Source: Patescibacteria group bacterium (GTDB taxonomy: Bacteria > Patescibacteriota > Microgenomatia > UBA8517). From it: 64,000 nucleotides of DNA. This document shows positions 40,227-63,288 of this stretch, in pieces. The notes under the pieces are model-generated. The model worked only from the letters and a program-made list of their open reading frames with translations, had not been told where the DNA came from and ran no database searches. The stretch covers positions 223,127 through 287,126 of the forward strand of contig DATDRP010000001.1 of the NCBI GenBank assembly GCA_035291665.1, in the 5' to 3' direction. The position numbers were made by a program, and so were the translations under genes. Within the stretch, counting starts at the first letter, position 1; every line of letters starts with the position of its first letter.

Positions 40227-40307
40227 ATCTGTTTAAAATCGCTCATATCGCTTCATCTTTGCAAATAATATTTTGGATATCTATAATACTTCTAACCAAA
40301 AGTTGAA

Positions 40308-42194: not shown

Positions 42195-42287
42195 TAAATA
42201 TTATTAAAAGTAGTACAATTAATATACTATATTTATAACTTGTCGATAGACTTGTCAAGAAGTATAGAAAACCCAACTAAGTATATT

Positions 42288-44224: not shown

Positions 44225-45038
44225 AAAAATCGTTTCCCCAAAATACGTTAAAAGGAAAATATTTACTTAATGGTGACAAATATAACATAAAATTATAAAC
44301 AGCATCTTTCCAAGATAACACCGTGTTATTTACAGTTACATTCGTTGAATGAATTTTGCCTTTAAAATTGGTTTGTTTGAATAAATTCCATAGTGAAATA
44401 TAATCAGGCTCATTGATATGCATTATCTTATGGTAATGAGTTCTAAACAATTTCGGATGAATTAATCTGGGATATTCCTTATTGAAGACAAATTTGTATA
44501 CAACAGATATAAATAAACTCACAGGATAACACCAATACTTGTATATATAGATATTAAACCATTTATTGGGTGCAGTATGAATAAATAACAATCCATCTTT
44601 TTTCAACAAGTTATTAATTTTCCCGAATACGACGATTTGCTCATCTGGATATAAATGTTCCAATACTTCCGTCATAACGACAAGGTCATATTTTTGGATT
44701 GTTTTTAACTTTTTAATATCTAAGTGCTTGAAAGCGACTCTTCGTTGTACACTTTTTGGCCATCTTCTTTTCGCATCAACAGCCAGTTTAATAGCATCTT
44801 CAGAATAATCGATTCCTAAAACTTTGCCTCCAGTAAGTTTCGACATCCACAAAGCGAGTTCACCTCTTCCACAACCGATATCCAAAATTCTCTGATCTAC
44901 TTTCAAAGGAATTAAATCAAGTATTTTTTTCAGACGTACATCAATTACTTTACCAAAAGTTTTTCCAAATATTTCATACCCCGACGCATCATTAAGGTAA
45001 TATTCTTTTGTATAAAGATTGGGTTCGACTCTTTTCAT
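44199..45038 (-). CDS. Class I SAM-dependent methyltransferase
   Basis: ILDIGCGRGELAL, VLGIDYSEDAI, LLKKDGLLFIHT. 279 aa. Confidence 0.75.
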   Translation of the reverse strand: MKRVEPNLYTKEYYLNDASGYEIFGKTFGKVIDVRLKKILDLIPLKVDQRILDIGCGRGELALWMSKLTGGKVLGIDYSEDAIKLAVDAKRRWPKSVQRRVAFKHLDIKKLKTIQKYDLVVMTEVLEHLYPDEQIVVFGKINNLLKKDGLLFIHTAPNKWFNIYIYKYWCYPVSLFISVVYKFVFNKEYPRLIHPKLFRTHYHKIMHINEPDYISLWNLFKQTNFKGKIHSTNVTVNNTVLSWKDAVYNFMLYLSPLSKYFPFNVFWGNDFYAILKKAC

Positions 45039-50913: not shown

Positions 50914-53568
50914 TTATTTACTAATCTCTTCCGAATAGGATTTTATAAGTTCAATCAGTCTTGCGTCGCCAAGATCAATTGGTGATATACCAAAATTGTC
51001 ATCCGACGAAAGCGACCAGTTCCACAGCAAGATCCCATCGACTTCTTTTGCTTTTGCCTGTTTCAAAAGTGATTCATACAGTGTGTATCGATCAATTCCC
51101 CCATTATCTTCAGGCTTTTTGGAAAAACCGACTTCTTCGATAAGAAGCGGTATTGATGCTGAATCAGAAAAATTATCCCACCTGGCGACCACCTCATGAT
51201 CAATCAAGGAACGCTCGGATTTTACATTATCAAGATAATAATGCGCTGTCATTACTGAAATTTCTGCTAAATTATCCAGATCATCAATCATCGGACCCGT
51301 TGCATATGGCATAAGTTCATTATCCGTCAGAAAGCCTTCTGACCCGGTAAGAATCAAATGCGACGGGTCGATCGATCTCACAAATTTCGACATCTCATCA
51401 ATCCAGCCGACAACTTTATCGGAAGCGGCTACGCTCGAGCTTCTGGGTTCGTTCATAAGCTCCCATGCAAAGACTACCGGGTCGTCCTTGTAGGCAACGG
51501 CGCTTAACGAATTCGATCTTGTGAGTATCTTAAAAACAAAATTTTTATAGATATTTTTTGATTTTTGAGAATCAAAAAACTTATCTTTATCAATAGCTTC
51601 AACTGATTTGATGCCATCCCATTCCAAATATTTATCAACTCCCCCATAAGCCTCCCAATAATTGGCAAAAACGGGAATAACTTTCATATCCAAACGGTCG
51701 GCAACTGCGAAAATATAGTCAATTGCAGCAAGCCTGTCCTCATTATAAACACCCGGTTCCGGTTGGATAGCGCCTTCAAAACCCTCTCCGAAGATCCAAA
51801 AACGAACAACTTTTATACCGTTGTCCTTCGCAGAGGATAAAGTTGCAGATATATCAGCCGGGGATTTGTATATAAGGTCATATGAATTTACGCCTATGAA
51901 TTTAAATTTTTTATCGTTCAGCCAAAGTTCGCCATTCTTCGCATAGATTGTGTCCCTGGGGTGTTCTTTTCTTTTGTAAATTATTAGGTCGTCAAATTCT
52001 TTGACCTCATCAAAAGTTCGCAAAAACTTTGAGTTGCCGTCTTTGACCAACTTAATATACATCGGATTGTACTCGTTGCCTTTTGGCAGTATGAGCCACG
52101 TTGCATAAATACTCGGATCGATAATTGACGTTTCCCAGTACCTGCCTGTTCCTTCATGGATATATCTTTTCAGGGGGAAACCCATATCAAAGGCTAAGGA
52201 ACTGTTAACCATTGATAACATAATCAGCTCATCATTATTATTCATATTCACTTTTGCCCAATCGGACACAACCCGGGTATTCGAAGCGCTCGAACCGATT
52301 AATCCGTCTTTCAGAGTAATTACGTAATTTTCTTTAATTAACATAATCGGCTGAATGATGATAAGAAGTACCGTGAAATATTTCATAAATTTGCTTTTCG
52401 AAATAAGATATGATATATAAACCGAAATTGCCGGTAACATCATCAAACCGTAGCGGACGTTGAAAATACCCGCGGTAGTCCCCAAGTACGGATCCAGAAC
52501 TAATTCTGGAACATTTATCGTTGAATAACCCTGGTACAAAGAAACAATATTAAAAATCATCGGTGTCATTAAAACTAAAAGCGATAAATTATTTACAAAA
52601 TCTTTCTTTCGTAAATAAATATAAAACCCAAATATCGTAAATAACGTGAAGAAAAAACCGAAATTGTCAACCAATGACCATCCATAAGTTAAAACAGCCA
52701 TAACCAAATCTTTTTTGGCATATAAACCGCCTGCTTTCTCAATTAATTCCTGTTGAGCATGCGCAGAGTATTGACCCAACGCAAAATAAAAAGGGTCTTT
52801 AAAAATAAAAGCATTCCAGACTATCCAAAGGGCAATCCCCAATCCGGAAAGAGTCATAAATAGGGAAAGTTTTCCAATCGTATTAGAAACAAAATTTTTT
52901 AATTCAATAGTTTTAACATTCCCCAAGCGTCTTGACAGGTAGGTTTTGACTTCAATCAGAAATAATATTAATCCCGTAAAAGCAAATTGGAACCAGCCGT
53001 CATATCTTGTTAAAATCGCGAAAAATAAATATAAAGACATTAACAAGATATCGTTTAAATGTTTTTCTTTTTCCCACTTGAGTAAGTGATATGCCGATGC
53101 CAAGGAAAAAAACATTAGGGGAACCTCTGTCATCGGTGTTGTCTGCATATATAGTACATTTAAGTTTGTGGCAAATATCAGAAATCCTAAGAAAGCAATA
53201 ATTTTATTTTTGAAAATATAATTAATCAAACCATAAACATATAAAGAAGCTAAGATATATGCGATCATTGAAAAGACGGCACCGGCTAGCCCTGTTTGCC
53301 AAAGCCAATCATTCCATACCAGCGTCATAGTTAAAACATGCGTCAGAGGAAGCCAAACCGAACCGAGTTGCGCCAAACCGGGTTTTAAATTATCTGTAAC
53401 CAAGCGGGCAATATTCATATGCGCTCTTGCATCGCTATAGGCAAGGATTATGTTGTACTTGAATGAAATAAAAAGAGAAATCAAGCTCAACACGATTGAG
53501 ATAGAAAAAATCAGCTTCCAAGTGGGTTTAAATTTAAATATTTTGAAATCGATTGTTTTACTTTTCAT
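50914..53568 (-). CDS. Fusion: N-terminal polytopic GT-C/ArnT-PMT-like membrane domain plus C-terminal GH5 glycoside hydrolase
   Basis: N-terminal ~480 aa has 10+ transmembrane helices, with the first loop AYSDARAHMNIAR resembling the ArnT/PMT DE-loop. C-terminal GH5: VRFWIFGEG, acid/base ELMNEPR, nucleophile region LLIEEVGFS. 884 aa. Confidence 0.65.
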   Translation of the reverse strand: MKSKTIDFKIFKFKPTWKLIFSISIVLSLISLFISFKYNIILAYSDARAHMNIARLVTDNLKPGLAQLGSVWLPLTHVLTMTLVWNDWLWQTGLAGAVFSMIAYILASLYVYGLINYIFKNKIIAFLGFLIFATNLNVLYMQTTPMTEVPLMFFSLASAYHLLKWEKEKHLNDILLMSLYLFFAILTRYDGWFQFAFTGLILFLIEVKTYLSRRLGNVKTIELKNFVSNTIGKLSLFMTLSGLGIALWIVWNAFIFKDPFYFALGQYSAHAQQELIEKAGGLYAKKDLVMAVLTYGWSLVDNFGFFFTLFTIFGFYIYLRKKDFVNNLSLLVLMTPMIFNIVSLYQGYSTINVPELVLDPYLGTTAGIFNVRYGLMMLPAISVYISYLISKSKFMKYFTVLLIIIQPIMLIKENYVITLKDGLIGSSASNTRVVSDWAKVNMNNNDELIMLSMVNSSLAFDMGFPLKRYIHEGTGRYWETSIIDPSIYATWLILPKGNEYNPMYIKLVKDGNSKFLRTFDEVKEFDDLIIYKRKEHPRDTIYAKNGELWLNDKKFKFIGVNSYDLIYKSPADISATLSSAKDNGIKVVRFWIFGEGFEGAIQPEPGVYNEDRLAAIDYIFAVADRLDMKVIPVFANYWEAYGGVDKYLEWDGIKSVEAIDKDKFFDSQKSKNIYKNFVFKILTRSNSLSAVAYKDDPVVFAWELMNEPRSSSVAASDKVVGWIDEMSKFVRSIDPSHLILTGSEGFLTDNELMPYATGPMIDDLDNLAEISVMTAHYYLDNVKSERSLIDHEVVARWDNFSDSASIPLLIEEVGFSKKPEDNGGIDRYTLYESLLKQAKAKEVDGILLWNWSLSSDDNFGISPIDLGDARLIELIKSYSEEISK

Positions 53569-55111
53569 AATTATTTTTTAAGTCTTTTGTTAATATTATT
53601 AACGTCGGTAGTGACAATACTAAAACAATTAAAGCAACGAGTGCTATATAAAAGGTTCTTGCATCAGTATATGATTTCAAATAATTCTGAAATACAAACG
53701 ATTTTGATTTTCCTTCAAAGATTAATAGAATGTTCCTATCAAAAGAATACAACTCAGTTCTACCCGTCACCAATTGAAGACCGATTGCTTCATATTTAGG
53801 AGGATTTTTACTTGATGATATGGCTCCGGCAGTATTAACTGCTACCGAATAAATAAGAGCTAAATAAAATACTGCAAACAAGAATTTGTTTTTATTTTCA
53901 GATAAAAATGTTGAAAGAAGAATTGACAGCATCGCATAGGAAGGTACCAAGTAGCGGGACCCGAAAGACCATCCGCCTATTCCGAAAGATGAATATAGTG
54001 AAATATTGGTGATTGTAACTGACAATAACAAATAAGTAAAAGCTTTATTTTTCTTTCTCAAATTATTGATGCCTAAAAGTCCGAAAATAAGTACCGGAGT
54101 GAAAAAAAGTAATCCCCTGTCAACACTTAAAAGGTGCTCATATGCCCCCTGCGGTATATAGCTTAAATTAAATAATCCGCTGATTGATTTTCCGTCTGAA
54201 CTTTCCGATTCTTCTTCGCTTAACTCCTCAAACTTTTTTAATTGCGTGACTGATCCTGATAATTTGAACGGATTGCCATAGGAGTATTTATTAAATAACA
54301 GTAACGCCGATAAAGGTATAAGGATCGCAATTATTGGCAGTATCTGTTTTAAAGATAGAGTAAATCTAATTCTGTCTTCAGTTGCGGCGACATTGAATAA
54401 CCGGACTACTCCCAAAATTCCAACCGGCAATAACATAAAGAAATTGGGGAAATCAATAATAATTGATAACGAGCAAATGAAAAAAACAAAGATTATTCCT
54501 AAGAATCTTTTTGAAGTTAACAGAATATAACATGCCAAAAGCAATAAAAATGTTGACACATGATGCTGGAATAACGACACCGCATATGTAAAGGCTGGTG
54601 TTGCAAAAATAAAAATACCTGAACTAATCAATGAAACCGCCTTATTTGATGTCAACCTGAGGCAGATTTTATAAATTACAATTGTATTAAGAAATGCAAA
54701 TAAAGTAATAACCAAATAACCCCCAAGTTGTGTTGCATTAAATAACTTACCCAAATAAAATCCGGGAATTAATAAATATGAGATACCGGGAACAAACAAT
54801 GATACAAATTTTCCATTCACATAACCTAAATCCGGTAAAGAAAATTTCGCCAGCTCGTTATCCAGGAAAATTGATTTATTCTCTAAAATCGAATACGTCA
54901 GGGCAAAACGCGCCCGTTCAGGCGAAAGTTCAAAAGGACCGCTATCGGACCATTCTTTCAAATTTAATTCAGTTTCATTCGGGACTCCCGGTAGTCCGCG
55001 AACACTAAGCAAAAGAATTAATAAAATAAAAAAGAAAAAAACAGCAGTTATCAATCGTTCAATTAGTTTCATATTTTCATTTAGTTGTTGCGACAATTTC
55101 CCATATTCCAC
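53558..55111 (-). CDS. GT-C-like polytopic membrane glycosyltransferase (GT39/ArnT-like)
   Basis: 517 aa with about 12 transmembrane helices and the typical large first periplasmic loop. Confidence 0.5.
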   Translation of the reverse strand: MEYGKLSQQLNENMKLIERLITAVFFFFILLILLLSVRGLPGVPNETELNLKEWSDSGPFELSPERARFALTYSILENKSIFLDNELAKFSLPDLGYVNGKFVSLFVPGISYLLIPGFYLGKLFNATQLGGYLVITLFAFLNTIVIYKICLRLTSNKAVSLISSGIFIFATPAFTYAVSLFQHHVSTFLLLLACYILLTSKRFLGIIFVFFICSLSIIIDFPNFFMLLPVGILGVVRLFNVAATEDRIRFTLSLKQILPIIAILIPLSALLLFNKYSYGNPFKLSGSVTQLKKFEELSEEESESSDGKSISGLFNLSYIPQGAYEHLLSVDRGLLFFTPVLIFGLLGINNLRKKNKAFTYLLLSVTITNISLYSSFGIGGWSFGSRYLVPSYAMLSILLSTFLSENKNKFLFAVFYLALIYSVAVNTAGAISSSKNPPKYEAIGLQLVTGRTELYSFDRNILLIFEGKSKSFVFQNYLKSYTDARTFYIALVALIVLVLSLPTLIILTKDLKNNYEK

Positions 55112-55973
55112 GATTAATTTTTGATCGTTTTTTTGTCAGATCGGAATATTTATTAACAAGAAAAATATATACCGCCAATAGAGGGTGTTTTAAAAATTCT
55201 TCAATTCCATACCGCAGATACATCGATTTCGGTATTGAAAGTTCCCGGTCAACCAGATTTTTAGGGAAGATATCATATAGCTGTTCTTTGCTTAACTTGA
55301 ATCTGCGTGCCTGCTTGATATGGTCCTTTAATGAAGATGGCAGATTGTAATAAACAACCGCCTCCGGCACAAATCGATATACAAAACTTTCTTGAATGCA
55401 TTTCAGGTAAATATATCTGTCGTTACATACTACATTTCCGGGAATCGATGCTATGTTTTTGATGAATTCCCGTCTGAATGCAAGCATTGGTCCGGTTGCA
55501 GAAAAGATGTTGTTTCCACCCCGGAGAGTTCTTTTTATTTTTCGATAGATATTTACCGATAACAGATTCGCTCTCGCAATAAGCGATGTGCTTTCTACTG
55601 GAACAATATCACCCCCGCACATTGAAATACGTTCATCTGAACGCATTACCCTTACAACGCTTTCGATTGTGTGTTCAGAAAACACTACATCAGCATCCGT
55701 TTGTATCAAAATATCACTATCAAACTTTTTATATAACTCCCGCAGCCTCGTCATCTGACCAAGGTTGTCTTTGTTGTCAACAATTTCTATCTTCGGATTT
55801 TTAAGATTTTGGACAATTTCAACAGTTTTGTCGGTGGACCCATCAGAAATAATTAATACCTTATTGAGCTTGAAGTTTCGGCCTTTCTGCCTCACAACAG
55901 AGTTGATAAACTTGAGAATATTTCTTTGCTCATTAAAGGCGCTCAAACCCACTGTTACGGATAGCGTTTTCAT
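55077..55973 (-). CDS. Glycosyltransferase family 2
   Basis: LSVTVGLSAFNEQ...IISDGSTDKT...QTDADV. 298 aa. Confidence 0.8.
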   Translation of the reverse strand: MKTLSVTVGLSAFNEQRNILKFINSVVRQKGRNFKLNKVLIISDGSTDKTVEIVQNLKNPKIEIVDNKDNLGQMTRLRELYKKFDSDILIQTDADVVFSEHTIESVVRVMRSDERISMCGGDIVPVESTSLIARANLLSVNIYRKIKRTLRGGNNIFSATGPMLAFRREFIKNIASIPGNVVCNDRYIYLKCIQESFVYRFVPEAVVYYNLPSSLKDHIKQARRFKLSKEQLYDIFPKNLVDRELSIPKSMYLRYGIEEFLKHPLLAVYIFLVNKYSDLTKKRSKINRGIWEIVATTK

Positions 55974-55975
55974 AT

Positions 55976-56890
55976 TCAGATTTTCTTGGAACTTAAAGAA
56001 AAATCCCAGATTGAATATCTCCTATTGGAGTATTTTTTGTTAAAAAAATTATATATATAAATTAATATATAACCTAAAAATAAAGGATGTGTAATAATAT
56101 TTTTCAGGAATGCATAAACCCATATTAATACCGGTACCTTATATTCTTTTTCAATGAGATTTTTATTGTATATTTTTAGAAGTTTTTTCTTTCCCTCATA
56201 ATATCTATCACTTTGTTTTTTATAATCCTGGAAAACGGATGGAGATCTGAATATTATTTTCGGTTTTTTAATAAACTTAAAAAGAAAGCCCTTTTTCAAA
56301 CATTTCAAATATGAATATGCATCTTCAGGGTATTTATCATCCCAAACAAAATTTTTATAAAATCTTCTAAAAAATAGTCTTCCCCTACCGTGACACATAT
56401 AAATATTGTTGCCTTGTTTCCAGGTTTTATATGCAAATTTCTTAAATTCCCGTCCATCGACTATTACCCTTTCAAAAAATGATTTCGGGGTGGCGCTGAC
56501 TGTTTCAACACTGACTATCCCGACATTATCTTTATCGAATAATTTAATCTCACTTATTAAATTTTCTAAAAAATATTTATCAGGAAGTAATACATCCGCG
56601 TTCAATAAGAGTAAAAGATCGGAATTCGATTTCTTTATTATTTCGTTTTGAACGTTTGGCTGACCACTCCTTTTATTCATAATCATGTATTCAAACTTAG
56701 TGTGTTTAATGGTTTTTAATATGGTGTTGGTATTGTCAGTCGAAGAATCTGAAACAACTAAAATTTTTTGGAGTTCAAAGTTATACTCCTTTTGTAAAAA
56801 CAGGCTTTTTATAATCTTTTCAATATTACCCTCCTCATTATAAGCGGGAATTCCTATTGTTAATGTTGGTTTGTTATTTCTATTTACCAT
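55976..56890 (-). CDS. Glycosyltransferase family 2
   Basis: LTIGIPAYNEEGNI...VVSDSSTDNT...LNADVLL. 304 aa. Confidence 0.75.
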   Translation of the reverse strand: MVNRNNKPTLTIGIPAYNEEGNIEKIIKSLFLQKEYNFELQKILVVSDSSTDNTNTILKTIKHTKFEYMIMNKRSGQPNVQNEIIKKSNSDLLLLLNADVLLPDKYFLENLISEIKLFDKDNVGIVSVETVSATPKSFFERVIVDGREFKKFAYKTWKQGNNIYMCHGRGRLFFRRFYKNFVWDDKYPEDAYSYLKCLKKGFLFKFIKKPKIIFRSPSVFQDYKKQSDRYYEGKKKLLKIYNKNLIEKEYKVPVLIWVYAFLKNIITHPLFLGYILIYIYNFFNKKYSNRRYSIWDFSLSSKKI

Positions 56891-58496
56891 TGGTCGAAAT
56901 TATTTTTTTTATATACAAAAATGTAGGTGAAATTTTTAATTTGAATAAATCTTCACCGTCATTGTGTTTTACATTAATTCTTTGAATTTTAAATCGGTTG
57001 TCTTTTAATTTTGAATAATAATTATTTTCTGTTGTAAACGCTGCTTTAAATTTATTTACCTTTAATAATTTAACCATATTTTCATTGTGTTGTCCGTGAG
57101 GATAAGCAAAATATTTAGTTTTTATTCCAATATATTTTGACAGTAACATTTTTGACAAAATAATATCAACCGAAGCTTCTTCCGGGCTTATTTGGGTCAT
57201 ATCCCGGTGAGTATGGTTATGGGATCCGATCGTCCACCCTTCGGCTTTAAGGCGTTTCAAATCGAGTACATTCAAATATACTTTACCTTGTTTCTTATTC
57301 ATCAAATTATTGCTATTTATAAACACAGTTGGTTTGATAGCCAATTTATTTAGTTCTTCAACAATAGACAAAACACTCTTCAATCCGTCATCAAATGTAA
57401 GCATATAATTTCCTTTGAACTTATTTGCGAAGCTGAAAAATCTGTCAGGAAGAACGAATCGATATATATTGTTAATATAATTAATCTGACGAATAAAAGT
57501 GTTCTTGTCTACCGTATAGTCATCGTCATGATTTCCTATTTCATGATAATTAATTACTAATAAATCAATCTTTCTGACAAGAAATTTATCGCTCAAGGCA
57601 AATATTAATACGCTGAATTTAATACTAAACTTAACAAGTGTATCGATTGTTTTTTGGTTCTTTTGATATATCATTCCAACAATAAAGGCAATCAATTCAA
57701 TAAGTTTGACAAAACAATAACCAAAAAATACAAACGGTTCTTTGTAAATGTTCTCAACGTTTTTGAAAATATTCTTGATACTTCTGTCATACAAATTTAT
57801 TCTTTTTATCCCTTCAGTTCCTTTTGAGGCCACCCTGATGGAATAAAATCCCATCCAAAATTTTTTAATCATACTTTGGATCAATGTAAAATGGTCAAAA
57901 GATATATGAATTGGATTTTTTAAACGGCTAATTTTTAAGTTTTTCTTGTTTAAATTAATCCAAAATCCCCATTCATCAGATTGGCCGTAAAATTTGTTAA
58001 AAGGAAGCTGATGCTCAGAAAAAAGAGATCTTTTGAAAATCCTGGGAGTTTCTGAGTTCTGGTCTTTTACATAGAGACCCTTTTCGAACGTATAAATTCT
58101 GGACAAAACATTTTTATTGATAATCCCTTTTTCGGTTATATAATAAGCATCGGCAATCATTCGTAAACTCAAAATTTCATCTACCAGCTCTTTTGTCAAA
58201 ATCATATCGTGATCAATATATAAAATATATTTTCCCGATGAGTTCAGGAAACCTTTATTTCTTGCATCATTTTTTTCACCCTGGAAAGTTATAAATTTCA
58301 AATTATGAAGTTTGTAGCTTTTAATCAGATCGGCAACTTCTCCTCCGGCGACAATCACCAATTCCACCAAATTGCTTTTAATTTCTGAAAGAGCTTTTAA
58401 GCACTCTTTCAACTGCATCGGATTACCTTTTATACAAAGATTTATAGATATTTTACGATTTTGAAGAGTTTTCATATTATTCTTTCTCCGTTGCAA
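56880..58496 (-). CDS. Fusion: GT2-like N-terminal domain plus C-terminal polysaccharide deacetylase (CE4/NodB)
   Basis: N-terminus VIVAGGE...YIDHDM (GT2-like). Membrane segment. C-terminal NodB motifs LTFDDGLKS...HNHTHRD. 538 aa. Confidence 0.7.
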   Translation of the reverse strand: MQRRKNNMKTLQNRKISINLCIKGNPMQLKECLKALSEIKSNLVELVIVAGGEVADLIKSYKLHNLKFITFQGEKNDARNKGFLNSSGKYILYIDHDMILTKELVDEILSLRMIADAYYITEKGIINKNVLSRIYTFEKGLYVKDQNSETPRIFKRSLFSEHQLPFNKFYGQSDEWGFWINLNKKNLKISRLKNPIHISFDHFTLIQSMIKKFWMGFYSIRVASKGTEGIKRINLYDRSIKNIFKNVENIYKEPFVFFGYCFVKLIELIAFIVGMIYQKNQKTIDTLVKFSIKFSVLIFALSDKFLVRKIDLLVINYHEIGNHDDDYTVDKNTFIRQINYINNIYRFVLPDRFFSFANKFKGNYMLTFDDGLKSVLSIVEELNKLAIKPTVFINSNNLMNKKQGKVYLNVLDLKRLKAEGWTIGSHNHTHRDMTQISPEEASVDIILSKMLLSKYIGIKTKYFAYPHGQHNENMVKLLKVNKFKAAFTTENNYYSKLKDNRFKIQRINVKHNDGEDLFKLKISPTFLYIKKIISTNGK

Positions 58497-61400
58497 ATGC
58501 AGGTGCAGCTTGGGTTATTTTATGTTCATGAATATTCATAAGAATATTCAAAAACCTTTCTGACTGTACTACCCAAGAATAATTTCTGGACCATTCATAG
58601 GCGTTTTTTGAAAGGATCTTCCTGTATCCGTCCATTGTTGTCAGTCCGACAATCGCTTTAGCTAAGATATCAGAATTTTCCAAAGGCACCAAAAGGCCCG
58701 TTAAGCCGTCGGCAACGGAATCCCGAAGCCCGTTTGTGTCTGAAGCGATCACCGGTGTTCCCGACGCATTTGCTTCAACAACAGTAATTCCCCACCCTTC
58801 AAAAGATGAAGGCTGGATCATTGCCCAGGAACGGGCAAGGATTTCTCTTTTTTCCTTTTCACTCACAAAACCTTTAAATTCAATATTTTCCTGCAAACCA
58901 AGCTTCTCGGTTAACAATTTGAGCTTTTCTTCCGATTCTCCCCGTCCGGCAACTATAAATTTCGCATTGGGTATATCTTTTACAACATCTCTGAAAGCTT
59001 TAATTGCAATGTCAACATTTTTATAATCCATCACACGACCCAAATATGAATATGTTGGTACTTCATATTTTTTCATTCTTGAAAAATCTCTCAAATTAAT
59101 TCCCGGATTAATGACATTGATGTTTTCACCGAGAGTCATATTTTCCTTGAGAATATCGTTTTTACTGGACTCCGATACGGTAACAACTTCAACATTTCTA
59201 TACACATTGGGCATCAGTTTCCCTTCAAGAAAACTTGCAAAATACGAAAACGGAAAAATGAGGTGTTTCCTGAAAATTGCCTGATGAACATGATGAATCA
59301 GAAGAACTTTTGGTAAATTTGAAAACAATGGTGAATAAAAAGGAATCCCATTTTCACAATCGACGACAAAGTCAAATTTTCCTCTCATTTTCAGAATATA
59401 ATATATCGGTACCCAAGCATATAAAGTAAAAAACCCGCCTCTTCGTATAATATTAACTCCTTTCAATTTTTCGTCGAATTTGTTTTTACCGTCATTGCCG
59501 CAGAATATTGTTACTCCGTAGCCCTTTTTGACCCACTTTTTTGCAAGCTCGTTAACATATACTTCAGCACCACCTGCCCATCTGTGCTTTATGTCTCTCC
59601 AGTTAAGGATAAGAATATTCAGTCTATTATCTGAATGTGAAACATTTAAAGGCTTTAGCAAATACAATAAAGACACCAGGTTAATCCTCAATGACGTCAT
59701 TTTTACAGTCAGAATATGAAGTGCAAATGTTGAGACAAAATACGATAGCGATGCTGCATAGATAGAACTGACAATTTGTCCAATAGTATCGTGGTTTTGA
59801 ATGATGTATAAAACCTCAAATGCGCTGATCAAAAAACCCAAAAGAGAAAAAGAGTACTGCTTTTTGACTTGGTGATAGGAAACAATTGTCGTTGCCAGAG
59901 TAAACGCAGCAATCGCAAGCGCATAATGCGGTAGATATTCAATAATCTGATAAGCTTTATTTCCAAATAGAAATGGCGCAGAAAGGGTTGAAAATACACC
60001 CAATCCGATATACGAAATTACGATAACTCCGAAGGTTAACCCAAAGATAGCATAAAATGTTTTTAAGCTATCTTTACCTTCACCAATTTTCCTGGCAACC
60101 ACAGGTGTAACAAAACTCGGGAAGAGACTTCCCAAAAAGAAGATCATTTTTCCGCAAAGGGAAAGTATTGCATATTTCCCGGCACTTTCCGGATCCAGAA
60201 GAAAAGTTGCCAATACAACATCAGCGCTCAAAAAGAATGCGACTGTAAACCTATTCAAAAGAGTTGTCAAATAAAATTTGAAGGGAAAATCCGCTTTTAC
60301 TTTAACCCCCCTGCGAATTTTGTTTTCGGGTATTTTCGAAACAATAAACCAGCCAATCAGGAGCGACATAAATAATGAAAACGGCTGATTGTAATAAATG
60401 AGATTAACATTACCAAGAGTTACGGACACAAACGCACCCAGCAGTTTGATAATCGGTACAATAATAGTAATCGCAGCCAGCATGTTGAACTTATGGTTAC
60501 CGCTTAAAAATCCCTGATCAACTGCGGTAATTGCAGAAATAATCAAAGTCGGTGCAACAACGAACAAGGCTAAATCGTTATCATACAAACCCTTTTCTGA
60601 TAAGAATAGCGAACCTATTGCCCAAATAATTCCTACCGGAAGTAATATCAAAAAAGCATATTTTCTGTATTTTGACCAATAATCTTTCCTAATGCCTCCG
60701 CGCCTACCCAATAAATATGCAGCTTTGTAAGAAACTGTGATCAACAGCGTTGCCGTTACGACACTTATAATAAGGTATGCATTAGTCATCAGGCTGGCTG
60801 ATCCGAATTCGGAATAAGTCAAAACCCTACCCAAATAGGCGTTATAAATGTAATTAAGGATGTTGGCGATAATATTCGAAACAATTAAAAGTCCTCCCCC
60901 GAATAGCAAAGTATTAACTTTTCCGAAGATATTGATCGGACTCAAGCGGTTTTTTACTGCAGAATAGCTTGTAAACTCGTGAGAGTCGGATTTCGAATCA
61001 TAGAGAATTTTTTCGGTTGGTTTTTTATTAAAAGTTAATACATTAACGTTGGGAATTAAATTTTTAAGATATGCAAAAGAAATATTAATTTTCGGAAATT
61101 CAAACGTTGGAATAATTGTAATTTCAGGAATAAATGCAACTTTAACTTTGTTCTCGGCTTGTAAATGCAAACCATGTTTGGTTTTCTCCCAATAGTATGG
61201 TTTTGCGATTAATTGATAAAAAGCAATAAAGGCAGCCACGAATGAAAGCATCCAATAAAAAGGAATAAAAAATACATACTGTATTAAGTTCCAATAATTG
61301 CGTTTAGCAAGTCCAATCATATTGGAATAAAAATATGTAAAATTTCCGAAAACCATTGTAAAGACTGCGATATAGAAAATATAAGGCGGATACAAAGCTT

Positions 61401-63288
61401 GAATTTGCGGACCCACAAATCGGTAGAGTGTAAAATAAGCAAGCGTCATCAGCCATAAAAACGGATTAATCAGAATAAATACCATTCTCATTGCTATGAT
61501 CAACTGAAAAAGAACAGCATGCAGTTTAAATTCCCTGAAAAACTCTACAGGTTTACGCATATGAACAAAATATGTTTGCATGTATCCTTTGATCCAACGG
61601 GAGCGTTGTCTTATCCAGCTTTTTATTTTACTATTGGCTTCTTCGAAAGTTACGGAATCAATAATCGCACTTTTATACCCTTTTTTAAATAGCCTTGTTC
61701 CCAAATCACAATCTTCCGTAACATTAAATGCATCCCAGCCGTTTAAAGATTTCAAAACCTCTGTTTTAAAATGATTGCTGGTTCCCCCAAGAGGAATGAA
61801 GGTATCAAAAGACTGAAGACCGGGAAGAGCAATATCAAACCAGAATGAATACTCGGAAGTGAACAATTTGGTCAACAAATTCTGATCCTGATTATAGTAA
61901 TTAAGTTTTGATTGAAGACAAATTGTATTCCTGTCTACCTGCCTGAAAGCAAGAAATGCTTTTTTGAGCTGCAATGGATCGGGTTTATCCTCTGCATCAT
62001 AAATAACAAGATAATCACCTGTTGCTTGATTCAGACCGAAATTACAGGCTTTGGGTTTAGTCTTTGGAAGTGAGGCCGGTACAATTAATATTTTATAATA
62101 AGGAGGAAGCTTCAGATCATACGCTTTATTAATAGTAACCGTGTCATCTTCCTCCAAAAGTAGCAACACTTCAAGTTTGTCTTTCGGCCAATCTATTGAT
62201 TCAATTCCTGATACAAATTGTTTTATAACTTCAGCCTCTTTGTATAAAGGACATAAAATAGTGTAGACGGGTAATTTACTGTCATCTATGTCTGCAATCT
62301 GTGATGGCGAAATTGAGATTTCTTTTGATTTCTTCAAAGATCGGAAAATAGTCACGCCTGTAAACAAAAAATCCGATAAATAGATATACGACAATATTCC
62401 TATCAACAACGTAAGTGTTACTTTAGTAAAAAATATAAGTCCGATGACAAACGTAAATCCAAAAAAAGTCAAAACCAGTTTTTGAATCGGTGTAAAGGTT
62501 TTAACTGCCGATAGTTCAGGATCAAGAGCGGAGTGTGTAATATATTTCTTTCCATTGAAAAAATATCCTTGACCGTCGATACTATCAAACTTATATGCTT
62601 TATTCCCCCTGAGCTTAAGTTTTATCGATTCCCCAGCAATTTGTTTGCCCGCTTTTATAAAATCTATTTTTGAAATACCGGCTTTACGCGGTGAAAAACT
62701 AATTTTTATTGTATCAATTTTGTATCCACTTGCCAGGCACGCTTTAAGGATCGGCATGTCGATTGTCCATTCTTTCACATCGTTTTCACTCAGAAGATCG
62801 ATAACTTCGTGCCTGAAAGCCTTAAGTCCCGATTGAGTATCGCAATCAAATCCGTGAAGTAACTTCTCAAAAATGAGCTTATTCATTGCACTACCCAAGC
62901 GTCTTAGGATTGAGGTCTTTTTACCTGATCTATTCGCGACAACTACTCCAGTATTCTCATCCTCGAGCTTCTGAAGCATTTCAGGAATGGCTTCAGGAGG
63001 ATATTGAAGGTCTCCATCGATCATAACCAGCATCTTTCTGTCTGAAACACTTGAGGCTTCCAAAATGCTGTAAGCTTTTCCCTGACGACCTTTTTTCGTT
63101 AAAAGAATAATTGGGTAAAACTGCTTCAATGCCGAAACCATTGATGCCGTGTTATCCTCGGAAAGGTCGTCCACAAATATAATCCTATATTCATATTTAC
63201 TAGCCAAACTAACATGAATGCGTTTGACCAGTTCAAATATATTTTGTGCTTCATTTTTTACCGGAACAATTACATCAACCTTATTCAT
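58477..63288 (-). CDS. Giant multidomain synthase: GT2, processive GT2 (D, DxD, TED, QxxRW), about 14 transmembrane helices, GT4
   Basis: 1603 aa. Domain 1: VIVPVKNEAQNI...FVDDLSEDNT...IDGDLQYP. Domain 2: ILCPLYKEAEV, YDAEDKPDP, VTEDCDLG, QRSRWIKG, which is the cellulose/chitin/PNAG-synthase motif set. Long polytopic region. C-terminus EGWGITVVEANASGTPVIASDTNG (GT4 E-x7-E). Confidence 0.75.
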   Translation of the reverse strand: MNKVDVIVPVKNEAQNIFELVKRIHVSLASKYEYRIIFVDDLSEDNTASMVSALKQFYPIILLTKKGRQGKAYSILEASSVSDRKMLVMIDGDLQYPPEAIPEMLQKLEDENTGVVVANRSGKKTSILRRLGSAMNKLIFEKLLHGFDCDTQSGLKAFRHEVIDLLSENDVKEWTIDMPILKACLASGYKIDTIKISFSPRKAGISKIDFIKAGKQIAGESIKLKLRGNKAYKFDSIDGQGYFFNGKKYITHSALDPELSAVKTFTPIQKLVLTFFGFTFVIGLIFFTKVTLTLLIGILSYIYLSDFLFTGVTIFRSLKKSKEISISPSQIADIDDSKLPVYTILCPLYKEAEVIKQFVSGIESIDWPKDKLEVLLLLEEDDTVTINKAYDLKLPPYYKILIVPASLPKTKPKACNFGLNQATGDYLVIYDAEDKPDPLQLKKAFLAFRQVDRNTICLQSKLNYYNQDQNLLTKLFTSEYSFWFDIALPGLQSFDTFIPLGGTSNHFKTEVLKSLNGWDAFNVTEDCDLGTRLFKKGYKSAIIDSVTFEEANSKIKSWIRQRSRWIKGYMQTYFVHMRKPVEFFREFKLHAVLFQLIIAMRMVFILINPFLWLMTLAYFTLYRFVGPQIQALYPPYIFYIAVFTMVFGNFTYFYSNMIGLAKRNYWNLIQYVFFIPFYWMLSFVAAFIAFYQLIAKPYYWEKTKHGLHLQAENKVKVAFIPEITIIPTFEFPKINISFAYLKNLIPNVNVLTFNKKPTEKILYDSKSDSHEFTSYSAVKNRLSPINIFGKVNTLLFGGGLLIVSNIIANILNYIYNAYLGRVLTYSEFGSASLMTNAYLIISVVTATLLITVSYKAAYLLGRRGGIRKDYWSKYRKYAFLILLPVGIIWAIGSLFLSEKGLYDNDLALFVVAPTLIISAITAVDQGFLSGNHKFNMLAAITIIVPIIKLLGAFVSVTLGNVNLIYYNQPFSLFMSLLIGWFIVSKIPENKIRRGVKVKADFPFKFYLTTLLNRFTVAFFLSADVVLATFLLDPESAGKYAILSLCGKMIFFLGSLFPSFVTPVVARKIGEGKDSLKTFYAIFGLTFGVIVISYIGLGVFSTLSAPFLFGNKAYQIIEYLPHYALAIAAFTLATTIVSYHQVKKQYSFSLLGFLISAFEVLYIIQNHDTIGQIVSSIYAASLSYFVSTFALHILTVKMTSLRINLVSLLYLLKPLNVSHSDNRLNILILNWRDIKHRWAGGAEVYVNELAKKWVKKGYGVTIFCGNDGKNKFDEKLKGVNIIRRGGFFTLYAWVPIYYILKMRGKFDFVVDCENGIPFYSPLFSNLPKVLLIHHVHQAIFRKHLIFPFSYFASFLEGKLMPNVYRNVEVVTVSESSKNDILKENMTLGENINVINPGINLRDFSRMKKYEVPTYSYLGRVMDYKNVDIAIKAFRDVVKDIPNAKFIVAGRGESEEKLKLLTEKLGLQENIEFKGFVSEKEKREILARSWAMIQPSSFEGWGITVVEANASGTPVIASDTNGLRDSVADGLTGLLVPLENSDILAKAIVGLTTMDGYRKILSKNAYEWSRNYSWVVQSERFLNILMNIHEHKITQAAPAFATEKE

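What the first reader, a model, noticed from the sequence alone, without database searches (positions are those of the whole stretch)
56880..58496. GT2-like + CE4 (NodB) deacetylase fusion immediately downstream of the synthase, PgaC/PgaB or IcaA/IcaB-like logic
The NodB motifs TFDDG and HNHTHRD identify a polysaccharide deacetylase. The neighbour is a processive GT2. This pairing is the hallmark of poly-N-acetylglucosamine-type (PNAG/PIA) or chitin-oligomer pathways, which produce a partially deacetylated polymer. Here the deacetylase is fused to an extra GT2-like domain and a membrane segment, an arrangement I do not recognise from characterised systems.
Basis: partly seen in the sequence, partly recalled or inferred. 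Interest (0 to 1): 0.6.

Follow-up and report, generated by a model that had tools for sequence, protein, structure and literature searches.

The report
GT2-like/CE4 deacetylase fusion, likely cytoplasmic
A real gene in an uncultured (probably Patescibacteria) bacterium fuses a glycosyltransferase-like domain to an apparently intact sugar deacetylase; the deacetylase folds like biofilm-polysaccharide deacetylases but most likely works inside the cell as a tailoring step of a conserved surface-glycan gene cluster.

Summary
ORF 56880..58496 (-) encodes a GT2-type GT-A domain, a hydrophobic helix, an amphipathic helix and a CE4 deacetylase. The probable start is the ATG at 58475.

The CE4 half has NodB2 topology, like IcaB, PgaB and PplD. 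Every catalytic position is intact: H318, D369/D370, H426/H430, R506. The N half keeps the DxD motif and an acidic DE pair, but has AGG where GT2 enzymes have DDG.

The PNAG-like interpretation is only partly supported.
- The neighbouring synthase is not a PgaC/IcaA orthologue.
- The closest CE4 relatives lack signal peptides or membrane anchors.
- Those relatives are repeatedly fused to domains that need cytoplasmic cofactors: APH-like kinases, GT2, GT4, a pyruvyl transferase and a methyltransferase.
- The same hydrophobic helix precedes a SAM methyltransferase in related N-module fusions.

Both halves occur as separate, optional genes in one conserved cluster: megasynthase, tandem GT2s, a 517-aa membrane protein, and a GT-C enzyme. 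They are joined only here.

Best reading: a membrane-associated enzyme on the cytoplasmic face that adds a sugar to a membrane-bound glycan intermediate and N-deacetylates it before export. This is a new variant of a known kind and of moderate interest. No biochemistry exists for it.

The parts
56880..58475 (-). Fusion gene from the likely ATG start (M8) to the stop codon; 531 aa. The maximal ORF extends to the TTG at 58496.
   Evidence: ORF list. GGAG at 58486-58489 lies 10 nt upstream of the ATG at 58475, and the upstream gene's stop is at 58477-58479. AF2 model has mean pLDDT 92.5 and pTM 0.75.
57882..58454 (-). GT2-type GT-A domain (residues 15-205, numbered from the TTG).
   Evidence: Pfam PF00535, E 2.9e-9. 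Foldseek hits to TarS, TarP, hyaluronan synthase, SunS, WrtF and GtrB, E 6e-10 to 3e-7. The family alignment shows invariant residues.
58341..58349 (-). AGG (residues 50-52), at the position where GT2 enzymes have DDG/SDG for nucleotide binding.
   Evidence: Family consensus is EIIVVG. The hhalign alignment against the neighbouring GT2 family places 'VVg' opposite 'ViSDGStD'.
58206..58214 (-). DHD (residues 95-97), the DxD metal and donor-binding motif of the GT-A domain.
   Evidence: Both Asp residues are invariant in the N-module family; coordinates checked.
57972..57977 (-). D174-E175 within the FGxLDEWGF motif; candidate catalytic-base region, equivalent to the GT2 'ED' motif.
   Evidence: E is invariant and D nearly invariant in A1; DEWGF is invariant in A3. 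The assignment as catalytic base is an inference.
57741..57884 (-). Helical subdomain after the GT-A core (residues 205-252), carrying conserved Arg residues.
   Evidence: Helices H198-245 in the AF2 secondary structure, M8 numbering. R225 and R231 (M8 numbering) are nearly invariant.
57660..57737 (-). Hydrophobic helix 1 (residues 254-279, PFVFFGYCFVKLIELIAFIVGMIYQK): a membrane anchor, probably not membrane-spanning.
   Evidence: Maximum KD19 of 2.26. It is conserved across the N-module family with an invariant Lys. In ten family members it is followed by about 250 or more further residues; six of these are Pfam-confirmed SAM methyltransferase fusions.
57582..57656 (-). Amphipathic helix 2 (residues 281-305), homologous to the N-terminal helix of the stand-alone CE4 relatives.
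   Evidence: Alignment A2. AF2 helix 274-298 in M8 numbering.
56889..57563 (-). CE4 deacetylase domain with NodB2 topology (residues 312-536).
   Evidence: Pfam PF01522, E 3.1e-19. PDB sequence hits 6dq3, 4v33, 4wcj. Foldseek top hits are 4wcj, 6dq3, 4hd5, 4v33, 6go1, 3vus, 4u10, 4f9d and 5bu6, which is the NodB2 set defined in PMC10967932.
57543..57545 (-). H318, the motif MT5 ('NYH') catalytic histidine, placed first in the sequence as in NodB2 enzymes.
   Evidence: Invariant in A2 and A5. It corresponds to PplD H105 (PMC8807736).
57384..57398 (-). TFDDG (MT1). D369 positions the catalytic water and D370 is a metal ligand.
   Evidence: Invariant in A2 and A5. Aligned to 'TFDD' of 6dq3. Corresponds to PplD D167/D168 (PMC8807736).
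57207..57221 (-). HNHTH (MT2). H426 and H430 are metal ligands.
   Evidence: Invariant in A2 and A5. Aligned to DHTVNH of 6dq3. Corresponds to PplD H223/H227.
57093..57107 (-). AYPHG (MT3 in its NodB2 form, without the Arg).
   Evidence: Y, P and G are invariant or nearly invariant. The NodB2 consensus is AYPYG (PMC10967932).
56979..56981 (-). R506, the C-terminal Arg that in NodB2 enzymes holds the catalytic Asp in place.
   Evidence: Invariant in A2 and A5. It corresponds to PplD R302; the spacing from the second Asp is 136 residues here and 134 in PplD (PMC8807736).
58477..63288 (-). Upstream 1603-aa megaprotein with four modules: a GT2 (DPM1/ArnC-like), a processive-type GT2 (TED, QRSRW), a region of about 10-12 membrane helices resembling Wzx, and a GT4.
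   Evidence: Orthologues at 55-61% identity occur in L041 and L022.
55976..56890 (-). Downstream GT2 (304 aa); its start overlaps the end of the fusion gene by 11 nt. It belongs to the tandem 'IPAYNEE' GT2 family of the conserved cluster.
55077..55973 (-). Second tandem GT2 (298 aa).
53558..55111 (-). 517-aa polytopic membrane protein of the LA_3751/LA_3752 putative glycosyltransferase family; a conserved partner in the cluster.
   Evidence: NCBIfam NF047440, E 5.6e-16, below its cut-off. Conserved synteny.
50914..53568 (-). 884-aa protein: a GT-C-like membrane domain (weak PMT_2/PMT hits) fused to a GH5 domain. Its N-terminal half is the conserved last gene of the cluster.

Best explanation
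This is a genuine bifunctional tailoring enzyme of a conserved surface-glycan gene cluster. The cluster was found in Patescibacteria MAGs of the Microgenomates type and in unclassified metagenome contigs.

Anatomy:
- The N-terminal half is a GT2-type GT-A glycosyltransferase module. It is held at the cytoplasmic face of the membrane by a hydrophobic helix that probably does not span the bilayer.
- The C-terminal half is a metal-dependent CE4 de-N-acetylase with NodB2 topology and a complete active site.

Proposed mechanism:
1. The GT module adds an N-acetylated sugar to a membrane-bound intermediate, most likely polyprenyl-phosphate-linked. Alternatively it only binds such an intermediate.
2. 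The fused CE4 removes the acetyl group on the cytoplasmic side, leaving a free amine.
3. The product is then flipped, perhaps by the Wzx-like module of the adjacent megaprotein.
4. The two conserved GT-C-like membrane proteins transfer or extend it outside the cell.

What is shown and what is inferred:
- Shown: the domain identities, the intact catalytic residues, the membership of the conserved cluster, and the separate occurrence of the two halves elsewhere.
- Inferred from relatives: the cytoplasmic location.
- Hypothesis: the substrate, the sugar, the donor and the order of steps.
For: 1. Domains and fold. Pfam calls both domains. The AF2 model has pLDDT 92.5 and pTM 0.75. The N half matches GT-A GT2 enzymes and the C half matches every solved NodB2 CE4.

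2. Active sites.
- CE4: H318, D369/D370, H426/H430, Y465-P466-G468 and R506 are invariant or nearly invariant in 14- and 30-sequence alignments. They map onto PplD H105, D167/D168, H223/H227, S264 and R302 (PMC8807736).
- N-module: DxD, DEWGF and several Arg/Lys residues are invariant. That argues for a catalytic module rather than a decayed one.

3. Cluster membership.
- At least six distinct loci carry [tandem GT2][N-module][TM517-like][GT-C-like] with no CE4 in the flanks available.
- Three further distinct loci (L039/40, L041/42, L043) carry a stand-alone CE4 of the same subfamily in the same cluster without the N-module.
- L003 has both as separate genes.
- Megaprotein orthologues sit upstream in L041, L022 and L013.

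4. Cytoplasmic location.
- 75 of 82 stand-alone CE4 homologues have no TM-like or signal-like segment before the YH motif.
- Among 30 longer homologues, 15 are fused to APH-type kinases, 5 to GT2, and 1 each to GT4, a pyruvyl transferase and an FkbM methyltransferase. More than half have no hydrophobic segment at all, including the GT2+CE4 protein P0044; P0115 also has none.
- The hydrophobic helix of the N-module is directly followed by a SAM methyltransferase domain in six Pfam-confirmed fusions.

5. Precedent. HfsH is a cytosolic CE4 proposed to deacetylate lipid-linked holdfast precursors before flipping (PMC5362036). ArnD is a membrane-associated NodB-fold esterase (PMC10967932).
Against: - All characterised NodB2 enzymes (PgaB, IcaB, BpsB, PplD) act outside the cytoplasm. 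PplD has exactly a 'TM helix, linker, CE4' layout (PMC8807736).
- The helix at residues 254-279 is hydrophobic enough (KD19 2.26) to span a membrane. That would put the CE4 outside the cell.
- No dedicated topology predictor and no model coordinates or PAE map were available.
- The N-module lacks the first nucleotide-binding Asp (AGG in place of DDG), so its donor, and even its catalytic activity, are uncertain.
- The two modules occur without each other in most related clusters, so the deacetylated residue need not be the one the N-module adds.
- No initiating phosphoglycosyl transferase was identified in the window.
- The sugar composition of the product is unknown.
Confidence: 0.55

Rival explanations
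1. PNAG-like logic. The processive GT2 of the 1603-aa neighbour makes and exports a HexNAc polymer. The helix at residues 254-279 spans the membrane, and the CE4 domain partially de-N-acetylates the polymer outside the cell, as PgaB, IcaB and PplD do.
For: - The CE4 half is closest in sequence and fold to IcaB, PplD and PgaB.
- The gene abuts a processive-type GT2 with TED and QRSRW motifs. TIGR03937 (PgaC_IcaA) is that protein's best NCBIfam hit.
- Helix 254-279 has TM-like hydrophobicity.
- PplD has a TM helix, a linker and then the CE4 domain (PMC8807736).
- Stand-alone CE4 genes of this subfamily also lie downstream of megaprotein orthologues (L041).
Against: - The PgaC_IcaA score is 111.6 bits against a cut-off of 422, and the nearest solved relative of the synthase module is BcsA.
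- PgaB and IcaB models score 26 and 29 bits against cut-offs of 322 and 248.
- Close CE4 relatives lack signal peptides or anchors and are fused to kinases, GTs and methyltransferases that need cytoplasmic cofactors.
- The same hydrophobic helix precedes SAM methyltransferases in N-module fusions.
- No PgaA, PgaD, IcaC or IcaD-type family appeared in the Pfam or NCBIfam scans of the neighbouring genes.
Confidence: 0.2
2. ArnC/ArnD/ArnT-type route, a specific sub-case of the best explanation. The GT module makes a polyprenyl-phosphate-HexNAc monosaccharide and the CE4 converts it to polyprenyl-phosphate-HexN. After flipping, the GT-C-like proteins use this as donor to decorate an extracellular polymer or protein with an amino sugar.
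For: - Two GT-C-like membrane proteins are invariant partners in the cluster.
- The CE4 is probably cytoplasmic and membrane-tethered.
- ArnD is a membrane-associated NodB-fold esterase acting in lipid A modification (PMC10967932).
- From general knowledge of the Arn pathway and of Francisella and Bordetella lipid A GalN/GlcN modification: a GT2 makes the lipid-linked sugar, a deacylase unmasks the amine, and a GT-C transfers it.
Against: - No ArnD family match appeared at E <= 0.01, and ArnD is NodB1-like rather than NodB2 (PMC10967932).
- Foldseek ranks TarS and TarP far above GtrB for the N-module: GtrB is rank 41 with TMq 0.43.
- The N-module has one hydrophobic helix, not the two-TM hairpin of GtrB and ArnC.
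- Most related clusters have the GT-C pair without any CE4.
Confidence: 0.15
3. The fusion is an artefact: a frameshift or assembly error joined two adjacent genes. Alternatively, one of the two halves is a decayed, non-catalytic domain.
For: - The two halves are separate genes in all other loci examined.
- The junction between helix 1 and helix 2 is only about 3-5 residues long.
- The ENA and JGI contigs are 100% identical to the window, so they are not independent populations.
- The GT module lacks the DDG motif.
Against: - The reading frame is continuous and the same sequence is found in two separate assemblies.
- AF2 confidence stays at 83-91 across the junction.
- All CE4 catalytic residues, and the DxD and DE motifs of the N-module, are intact and are family-invariant.
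- AGG in place of DDG is a feature of the whole N-module family, not a lesion private to this gene.
Confidence: 0.05

Closest known systems
PplD (Streptococcus pyogenes; PDB 6DQ3), de-N-acetylase of the rhamnopolysaccharide linkage-unit GlcNAc
   Same: - Best PDB sequence hit, E 7e-8 over residues 328-512, and Foldseek rank 2, TMt 0.80-0.83.
- Same NodB2 motif order.
- Same catalytic set: His (MT5), Asp-Asp, His-x3-His, AYPxG and a C-terminal Arg (PMC8807736).
- A hydrophobic helix precedes the CE4 domain.
   Different: - PplD is an extracellular enzyme anchored by an N-terminal TM helix and has no GT domain.
- Here the CE4 follows a cytoplasmic GT-A domain, and its closest relatives look cytoplasmic.
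- Sequence identity is about 20%.
IcaB and PgaB (and BpsB), the PNAG de-N-acetylases
   Same: - NodB2 topology. IcaB from Ammonifex degensii (4WCJ) is the top Foldseek hit, E 7.6e-14 and TMt 0.78.
- The TIGR03933 IcaB model aligns over almost its full length, positions 31-239 of 245.
- The gene neighbours a processive GT2.
   Different: - Scores are far below the family cut-offs: 28.8 against 248, and 26.2 against 322.
- No signal peptide or lipobox.
- No C-terminal PNAG-binding domain as in PgaB.
- No PgaA/PgaD/IcaC/IcaD-type family appeared in the scans of the neighbouring genes.
- The location is probably cytoplasmic.
HfsH (Caulobacter holdfast deacetylase)
   Same: - A CE4 enzyme reported to be cytosolic. 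It is proposed to deacetylate lipid-linked oligosaccharide precursors assembled by GTs before flipping (PMC5362036).
- This is the same logic as the mechanism proposed here.
   Different: - The NF050820 score is 22.8 bits against a cut-off of 400.
- HfsH is a stand-alone protein.
- Its topology class was not compared here.
NodC/NodB (chitooligosaccharide synthase plus deacetylase)
   Same: A QxxRW-type GT2 paired with a CE4 deacetylase that acts before export. The cytoplasmic action of NodB is stated from general knowledge.
   Different: - NodB has NodB1 topology.
- TIGR04243 scores 20.7 bits against a cut-off of 240.
- No NodA-type acyltransferase is present.
- The two proteins are not fused.
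ArnC/ArnD/ArnT pathway
   Same: A GT2, a membrane-associated NodB-fold esterase and a GT-C transferase encoded in one locus. The amine is unmasked on a lipid-linked sugar (PMC10967932 for ArnD; the rest of the pathway from general knowledge).
   Different: - No ArnD family match.
- ArnD is NodB1-like and is a deformylase.
- The N-module is not ArnC-like in its membrane helices.
[quoted passage not shown] IgtG), and the uncharacterised homologues P0044 and P0115
   Same: The same two Pfam families occur in one polypeptide. P0044 and P0115 carry a CE4 of the same subfamily C-terminal to a GT2.
   Different: - IgtG is a protein with four TM helices that iteratively glycosylates a lasso peptide (PMC11912497). 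It was not compared by sequence here.
- P0044 and P0115 have canonical GT2 domains with the DxGSTD motif and no hydrophobic helix.
- P0115 has a TPR linker.

Membership tests
CE4 / NodB homology domain (PF01522) | Profile match above the curated threshold | tested here: met
   69.6 bits against a cut-off of 23.1, E 3.1e-19, residues 364-483.
CE4 / NodB homology domain (PF01522) | Asp-His-His metal triad, plus the catalytic Asp (MT1) and His (MT5) | tested here: met
   D370, H426, H430, D369 and H318 are invariant in A2 and A5. They align to the PplD residues (PMC8807736).
NodB2 topology class (PgaB/IcaB/BpsB/PplD/BA0330) | MT5 comes first in the sequence; MT3 is AYPxG without Arg; the Arg is supplied from a C-terminal position; MT4 is absent | tested here: met
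   The order is NYH(318), TFDD(367), HNHTH(426), AYPHG(464), R506. The criteria are taken from PMC10967932. The absence of MT4 was judged only by the lack of a DxxDW-like motif.
NodB2 topology class (PgaB/IcaB/BpsB/PplD/BA0330) | Closest solved structures are NodB2 members | tested here: met
   Foldseek ranks 1-12 are 4wcj, 6dq3, 4hd5, 4v33, 6go1, 3vus, 4u10, 4f9d and 4f9j; 5bu6 is rank 34.
PgaB (TIGR03938) | Equivalog score; C-terminal PNAG-binding domain; lipoprotein signal; PgaA/PgaC/PgaD partners | tested here: not met
   26.2 bits against a cut-off of 321.9, covering only residues 312-382. The protein ends right after the CE4 domain, and the N-terminus is a GT-A domain. The synthase scores 111.6 against 422 for PgaC_IcaA.
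IcaB (TIGR03933) | Equivalog score; secreted protein; icaADBC gene context | tested here: not met
   28.8 bits against a cut-off of 248.35. No signal peptide. No IcaC or IcaD-type family appeared in the Pfam or NCBIfam scans of the neighbouring genes.
NodB (TIGR04243) | Equivalog score; NodB1 topology | tested here: not met
   20.7 bits against a cut-off of 240. The topology is NodB2.
HfsH (NF050820) | Equivalog score | tested here: not met
   22.8 bits against a cut-off of 400.
ArnD | Family profile match; NodB1-like fold | tested here: not met
   No ArnD model appears among the NCBIfam hits at E <= 0.01. The fold neighbours are NodB2.
GT2 (PF00535), GT-A fold | Profile match above threshold, and GT-A fold | tested here: met
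   37.5 bits against a cut-off of 23.3. Foldseek hits to TarS, TarP, hyaluronan synthase and others with probability 1.00 and TMq 0.5-0.6.
GT2 (PF00535), GT-A fold | DxD motif and an acidic catalytic-base region | tested here: met
   DHD (95-97) and D174/E175 are conserved across the family.
GT2 (PF00535), GT-A fold | First nucleotide-binding Asp after strand 2 (the DDGS/SDGSTD motif) | tested here: not met
   AGG at residues 50-52. The family consensus is 'EIIVVG'. hhalign places it opposite 'ViSDGStD' of the neighbouring GT2 family.
GT2 (PF00535), GT-A fold | Glycosyl transfer from a nucleotide sugar | not testable with these tools
   Requires a biochemical assay.
NCBI architecture 'bifunctional polysaccharide deacetylase/GT2' (IgtG-like) | Sequence similarity to IgtG-type proteins, and four TM helices | not tested
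   Known here only from PMC11912497. This protein has a single strongly hydrophobic helix.

The most novel reading that the evidence does not exclude
NodB2-type CE4 deacetylases, so far known only as extracytoplasmic enzymes acting on PNAG or cell-wall glycan, include a large uncharacterised cytoplasmic clade. In this clade the CE4 is wired to kinases, glycosyltransferases and methyltransferases.

In this organism the CE4 is docked, through a GT2-derived membrane-associated module with an altered nucleotide pocket, onto a megasynthase-flippase/GT-C assembly line. There it would turn a polyprenyl-linked HexNAc into a HexN before export. That would define a new pre-export amino-sugar tailoring pathway for the cell surface of Patescibacteria.
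Probability: 0.2. Interest if true: 0.6.

Novelty: new variant of a known kind. Interest (0 to 1): 0.38.

Why it matters
If the proposed mechanism is right, three things follow.

- It extends the NodB2 class of CE4 enzymes from extracellular polymer deacetylation to cytoplasmic, pre-export tailoring.
- It functionally links two uncharacterised protein families, the 'VVG-type' GT2 module and the cytoplasmic NodB2 CE4 clade, to one conserved glycan-assembly cluster found mainly in uncultured Patescibacteria. Their surface chemistry is essentially unknown and probably matters for attachment to hosts.
- Free amines introduced by deacetylation change surface charge and resistance to lysozyme and cationic peptides in other bacteria (PMC8807736).

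Practically, the fusion is a convenient single polypeptide for testing the substrates of both families. If the mechanism is wrong, this remains an ordinary though rare domain fusion in a hypervariable glycan locus.

Tried and rejected
- The word-indexed homologue search with the whole protein found only the protein itself plus distant CE4 hits. The exhaustive HMMER search was needed to see that the halves exist separately.
- The search for related loci with the 14-sequence alignment failed because no stretch was conserved enough. It worked with 7 closer sequences.
- Model coordinates and PAE are not exposed. Domain packing and the orientation of helix 254-279 could not be inspected; pTM 0.75 is only a weak hint of a fixed inter-domain arrangement.
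- I tested whether the N-module is a close paralogue of the tandem 'IPAYNEE' GT2 genes. hhalign gives only 88.7% probability over the N-terminal 105 columns at 12% identity, so I rejected this.
- A PDB sequence search with the 517-aa membrane protein gave nothing, and Pfam gave nothing.
- I considered a pseudoenzyme CE4 and rejected it because all catalytic positions are conserved.
- I considered a peptidoglycan deacetylase of PgdA type and rejected it. The PgdA and PdaB models match only the motif core, far below their cut-offs. The fold class is NodB2, not NodB1, and there is no export signal.
- Literature searches for Patescibacteria + deacetylase + glycosyltransferase, and for ArnD + NodB, returned nothing in the held library.
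- I ran no further search on taxonomic placement. 'Patescibacteria/Microgenomates-like' rests on the titles of related loci and one named homologue (P0061).

Full report
OBSERVATION

The ORF 56880..58496 on the minus strand is real, at 538 aa from a TTG start.
- Pfam places a Polysacc_deac_1 (CE4) domain at residues 364-483 (E 3.1e-19). It places a Glycos_transf_2 match at residues 28-109 (E 2.9e-9). Both are above their curated thresholds.
- Between the two domains lies a strongly hydrophobic helix at residues 254-279, with a maximum Kyte-Doolittle 19-residue score of 2.26. A second, amphipathic helix follows at 281-305.
- The upstream 1603-aa gene ends at 58477. An ATG at 58475 (M8), preceded by GGAG at a 10-nt spacing, is the most plausible start.
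- The public gene call (P0001, 512 aa) starts at M27. That removes the first beta-strand of the GT-A fold.
- The same sequence is present in an ENA contig of 352 kb and a JGI contig. Both are 100% identical to the window.

THE TWO HALVES

An AlphaFold2 model built on a 50-sequence alignment is confident throughout: pLDDT 92.5, pTM 0.75, and 83-91 across the junction.

C-terminal half (CE4):
- Its Foldseek neighbours are IcaB (4WCJ), PplD (6DQ3), BC0361/BA0330 (4HD5, 4V33), BA0331 (6GO1), PgaB (3VUS, 4F9D, 4F9J), AaPgaB (4U10) and BpsB (5BU6). These are exactly the proteins a recent structural survey groups as the 'NodB2' topology of CE4 (PMC10967932).
- The sequence shows the NodB2 hallmarks described there. 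MT5 comes first (LVINYH, H318), then MT1 (TFDD, D369/D370), MT2 as H-x3-H (H426, H430), and MT3 as AYPHG without Arg. An Arg is supplied from near the C-terminus (R506).
- These positions are invariant in alignments of 14 close homologues and of 30 multidomain homologues.
- They correspond one-to-one to PplD H105, D167/D168, H223/H227, S264 and R302. The roles of those residues were established by structure, and for H105 and D167 also by mutagenesis (PMC8807736).
The domain looks catalytically competent.

N-terminal half (GT2-like):
- It is a GT-A fold GT2. The separate model has pLDDT 90.6 and pTM 0.87. Foldseek hits include TarS, TarP, hyaluronan synthase, SunS, WrtF, RmlT and GtrB.
- It belongs to a distinct subfamily, which I call the N-module. 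This subfamily keeps the DxD motif (DHD 95-97), an FGxLDEWGF motif at the position of the GT2 'ED' catalytic region, several Arg residues, and a C-terminal hydrophobic helix with an invariant Lys.
- It has 'EIIVVG' where GT2 enzymes have 'VDDGS'; in this protein the residues are AGG 50-52.
- A profile-profile alignment against the neighbouring tandem GT2 family shows 'VVg' opposite 'ViSDGStD', and no counterpart of 'YNEE'. DxD aligns with DxD.
- The strong conservation of the acidic motifs argues for a working enzyme with an altered nucleotide pocket. This is an inference.

DISTRIBUTION

An exhaustive HMMER search of 1.84 billion representative proteins found the two halves almost always apart.
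- The N-module occurs as stand-alone proteins of 270-290 aa; the best is P0016 at 43% identity.
- The N-module also occurs fused to a SAM-dependent methyltransferase, in proteins of about 545 aa. Six are confirmed by Pfam.
- The CE4 half occurs as stand-alone proteins of 250-280 aa and as the C-terminal part of proteins of about 600 aa.
- A protein sharing both halves would outscore single-half hits. The only one is P0115 (519 aa), with a canonical GT2, a TPR linker and a CE4.
- This particular fusion therefore appears unique to this population. GT2+CE4 fusions as such are not unique: P0044, P0115, and 5 of 30 long homologues carry them. [quoted passage not shown]

GENOMIC CONTEXT

Related loci from reference genomes are Patescibacteria MAGs labelled Gottesmanbacteria, Woesebacteria and Levyibacteriota, plus two contigs labelled Gammaproteobacteria.

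Mapping the window's proteins onto these and onto metagenome loci shows a conserved block. It consists of [tandem 'IPAYNEE' GT2 genes][N-module][a polytopic protein of about 510 aa like window 53558-55111][a GT-C-like protein of about 545 aa like the N-half of window 50914-53568].
- The block occurs in at least six distinct loci. Orthologues of the 1603-aa megaprotein lie upstream where the contig reaches that far.
- None of these loci has a CE4 in the available flanks, except L003. There a CE4 of the same subfamily lies 5.8 kb upstream on the same strand.
- Conversely, three distinct loci found through stand-alone CE4 homologues (L039/40, L041/42, L043) show the CE4 inside the same cluster. 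It sits next to GT4, methyltransferase and APH-like kinase genes, between a megaprotein orthologue (61% identity in the synthase module) and the GT2/517-aa-like/GT-C-like trio. These loci have no N-module.

The N-module and the CE4 are therefore two optional tailoring components of one conserved assembly line, and only here are they joined.

The fusion gene region also has the lowest G+C in the window: 28% for 56-58 kb, against about 36% overall. Such low G+C is, from general knowledge, typical of the variable part of glycan loci.

The rest of the window carries chromosomal housekeeping genes: enolase, PPDK, DnaE, GatA/B and LexA.

WHERE DOES THE CE4 ACT?

This is the point that decides between mechanisms. 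Four lines of evidence place the CE4 in the cytoplasm.
1. Of 82 stand-alone homologues with at least 19 residues before the YH motif, 75 have no TM-like segment. The median maximum KD19 is 1.02. Their N-terminus is a charged amphipathic helix homologous to helix 281-305 here.
2. Among 30 longer homologues, the partner domains are APH-type kinases (15), GT2 (5), GT4, a polysaccharide pyruvyl transferase and an FkbM methyltransferase (1 each). All of these need cytoplasmic cofactors. More than half of these proteins have no hydrophobic segment at all.
3. In the N-module family, the hydrophobic helix is directly followed by a SAM methyltransferase with an intact glycine-rich motif, and no second hydrophobic helix intervenes. 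In those proteins the helix cannot be membrane-spanning.
4. The pTM of 0.75 for the two-domain model hints at a defined inter-domain arrangement. This is weak evidence, because PAE could not be inspected.

I therefore consider the CE4 cytoplasmic, tethered to the inner face of the membrane by helix 254-279.

The counter-argument is that all characterised NodB2 enzymes are extracytoplasmic. PplD has a TM-linker-CE4 layout (PMC8807736), and helix 254-279 is hydrophobic enough to span a bilayer. My hydropathy analysis is crude, and no dedicated predictor was available.

MECHANISM

Best-supported reading (confidence 0.55):
1. The protein is a membrane-associated, cytoplasmic-face bifunctional tailoring enzyme.
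2. The GT module adds a sugar to a membrane-bound glycan intermediate, probably polyprenyl-phosphate-linked.
3. The CE4 removes an N-acetyl group before the intermediate is flipped.
4. The two GT-C-like proteins then handle it outside the cell.

A flipping step is plausible for two reasons.
- The megaprotein contains a region of about 10-12 helices with a weak but nearly full-length match to the Wzx/MOP family. Polysacc_synt scores E 3e-4 over positions 4-246 of 274, below the gathering score.
- It also carries a DPM1/ArnC-like GT2, a processive-type GT2 and a GT4.

Precedents for deacetylation before export are HfsH, reported cytosolic and proposed to act on lipid-linked holdfast precursors (PMC5362036), and ArnD, a membrane-associated NodB-fold esterase (PMC10967932). 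NodB is a further precedent from general knowledge.

The general biochemical rationale is that amino sugars are installed as N-acetyl sugars and then unmasked. This comes from established knowledge.

The sugar, the donor, the acceptor and the order of steps are hypotheses.

Rivals:
- The PNAG-like extracellular model: 0.2.
- An ArnC/ArnD/ArnT-type monosaccharide-donor route, which is a sub-case of the best explanation: 0.15.
- An artefact or a decayed domain: 0.05.

COMPARISON WITH KNOWN FAMILIES

- The CE4 half is a member of CE4 and of the NodB2 topology class; those criteria were tested and met.
- It is not a member of the PgaB, IcaB, NodB, HfsH, PgdA or PdaB equivalog families. All score roughly 3-20% of their cut-offs. 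No ArnD model matched at all.
- The synthase next door is not PgaC/IcaA: 111.6 bits against a cut-off of 422. BcsA is its nearest solved relative at E 1.6e-10.
- The N half is GT2 by profile and fold but fails one canonical feature, the first nucleotide-binding Asp.
- In short, the enzyme probably works chemically like PplD or IcaB, as a Zn-type NodB2 de-N-acetylase. Its place in the pathway is more like HfsH, NodB or ArnD.

VERDICT

- The PgaC/PgaB-type interpretation is partly supported: the fold class and the neighbourhood fit, but orthology and location do not.
- Novelty: a new variant of a known kind. It is a unique fusion of two uncharacterised subfamilies, and it points to a cytoplasmic branch of NodB2 deacetylases.
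- Interest is moderate, at 0.38. Domain fusions among glycan-tailoring enzymes are common, and nothing here overturns a principle. The cytoplasmic NodB2 clade and the conserved Patescibacteria glycan cluster are nonetheless worthwhile, testable leads.

Noticed in passing
window 58477-63288 (-): A 1603-aa four-module megaprotein. It combines a DPM1/ArnC-like GT2 (residues 1-230), a processive-type GT2 with TED and QRSRW motifs (about 326-696), a region of about 10-12 helices with a weak, nearly full-length Wzx/Polysacc_synt match (E 3e-4, below the gathering score), and a C-terminal GT4. Orthologues at 55-61% identity occur in L041 (1538 aa), L022 and L013. A synthase, a flippase-like region and two other GTs in one polypeptide is unusual.
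   Followed up: partly
window 50914-53568 (-): An 884-aa protein whose N-terminal half is a GT-C-like polytopic domain (weak PMT_2/PMT hits) and whose C-terminal half is a GH5 glycoside hydrolase (a precomputed hit also to GH5_mannosidase). Orthologues in all related loci are about 540-560 aa and lack the GH5 domain.
   Followed up: partly
window 53558-55111 (-): A 517-aa polytopic protein with no Pfam or PDB match. It has a sub-threshold NCBIfam match to the LA_3751/LA_3752 putative glycosyltransferase family. In every related locus it is paired with the GT-C-like gene.
   Followed up: partly
P0026, P0034, P0038, P0057, P0124, P0160; loci L016, L017, L025, L027: In other genomes the same 'VVG-type' GT2 module, including its hydrophobic helix, is fused to a SAM-dependent methyltransferase. 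The module appears to be a platform to which different sugar-modifying domains are attached.
   Followed up: partly
P0033, P0051, P0131, P0142, P0152 and others (alignment A5): Half (15 of 30) of the longer homologues of this CE4 subfamily are fusions of an APH-type kinase and the CE4, mostly without any hydrophobic segment. Separate APH-like genes sit next to the stand-alone CE4 in L041 and L043. A kinase-deacetylase pairing in glycan clusters is unexplained.
   Followed up: no
window 35186-46258: A second glycan locus. It contains a Wzy_C-family protein (35186-36352), three GT2 genes including one of 755 aa, a GT4, two SAM methyltransferases and a Wzx-type flippase (Polysacc_synt_3, 45038-46258). 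The 42-46 kb stretch has about 30% G+C.
   Followed up: no
window 56001-58000: The lowest G+C in the window (28.2%, against about 36% overall) coincides with the fusion gene and the first tandem GT2. This fits a variable or horizontally exchanged part of the cluster.
   Followed up: no
window 47683-49887 (+) and 40308-42194 (-): Large proteins with Kelch beta-propeller and PKD/Ig domains (734 aa), and with PKD plus a lectin-like 3-keto-disaccharide-hydrolase domain (628 aa), flank the glycan clusters.
   Followed up: no
window 58418-58496: The public gene call for the fusion protein (P0001, 512 aa) starts at M27 and omits the first beta-strand of the GT-A domain. The ATG at 58475 with an upstream GGAG is the better start.
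   Followed up: yes
L005 and L008 (genome contigs): Two contigs carrying the N-module cluster are labelled 'uncultured Gammaproteobacteria'. Their gene order matches the Patescibacteria loci, so they may be mis-binned contigs.
   Followed up: no
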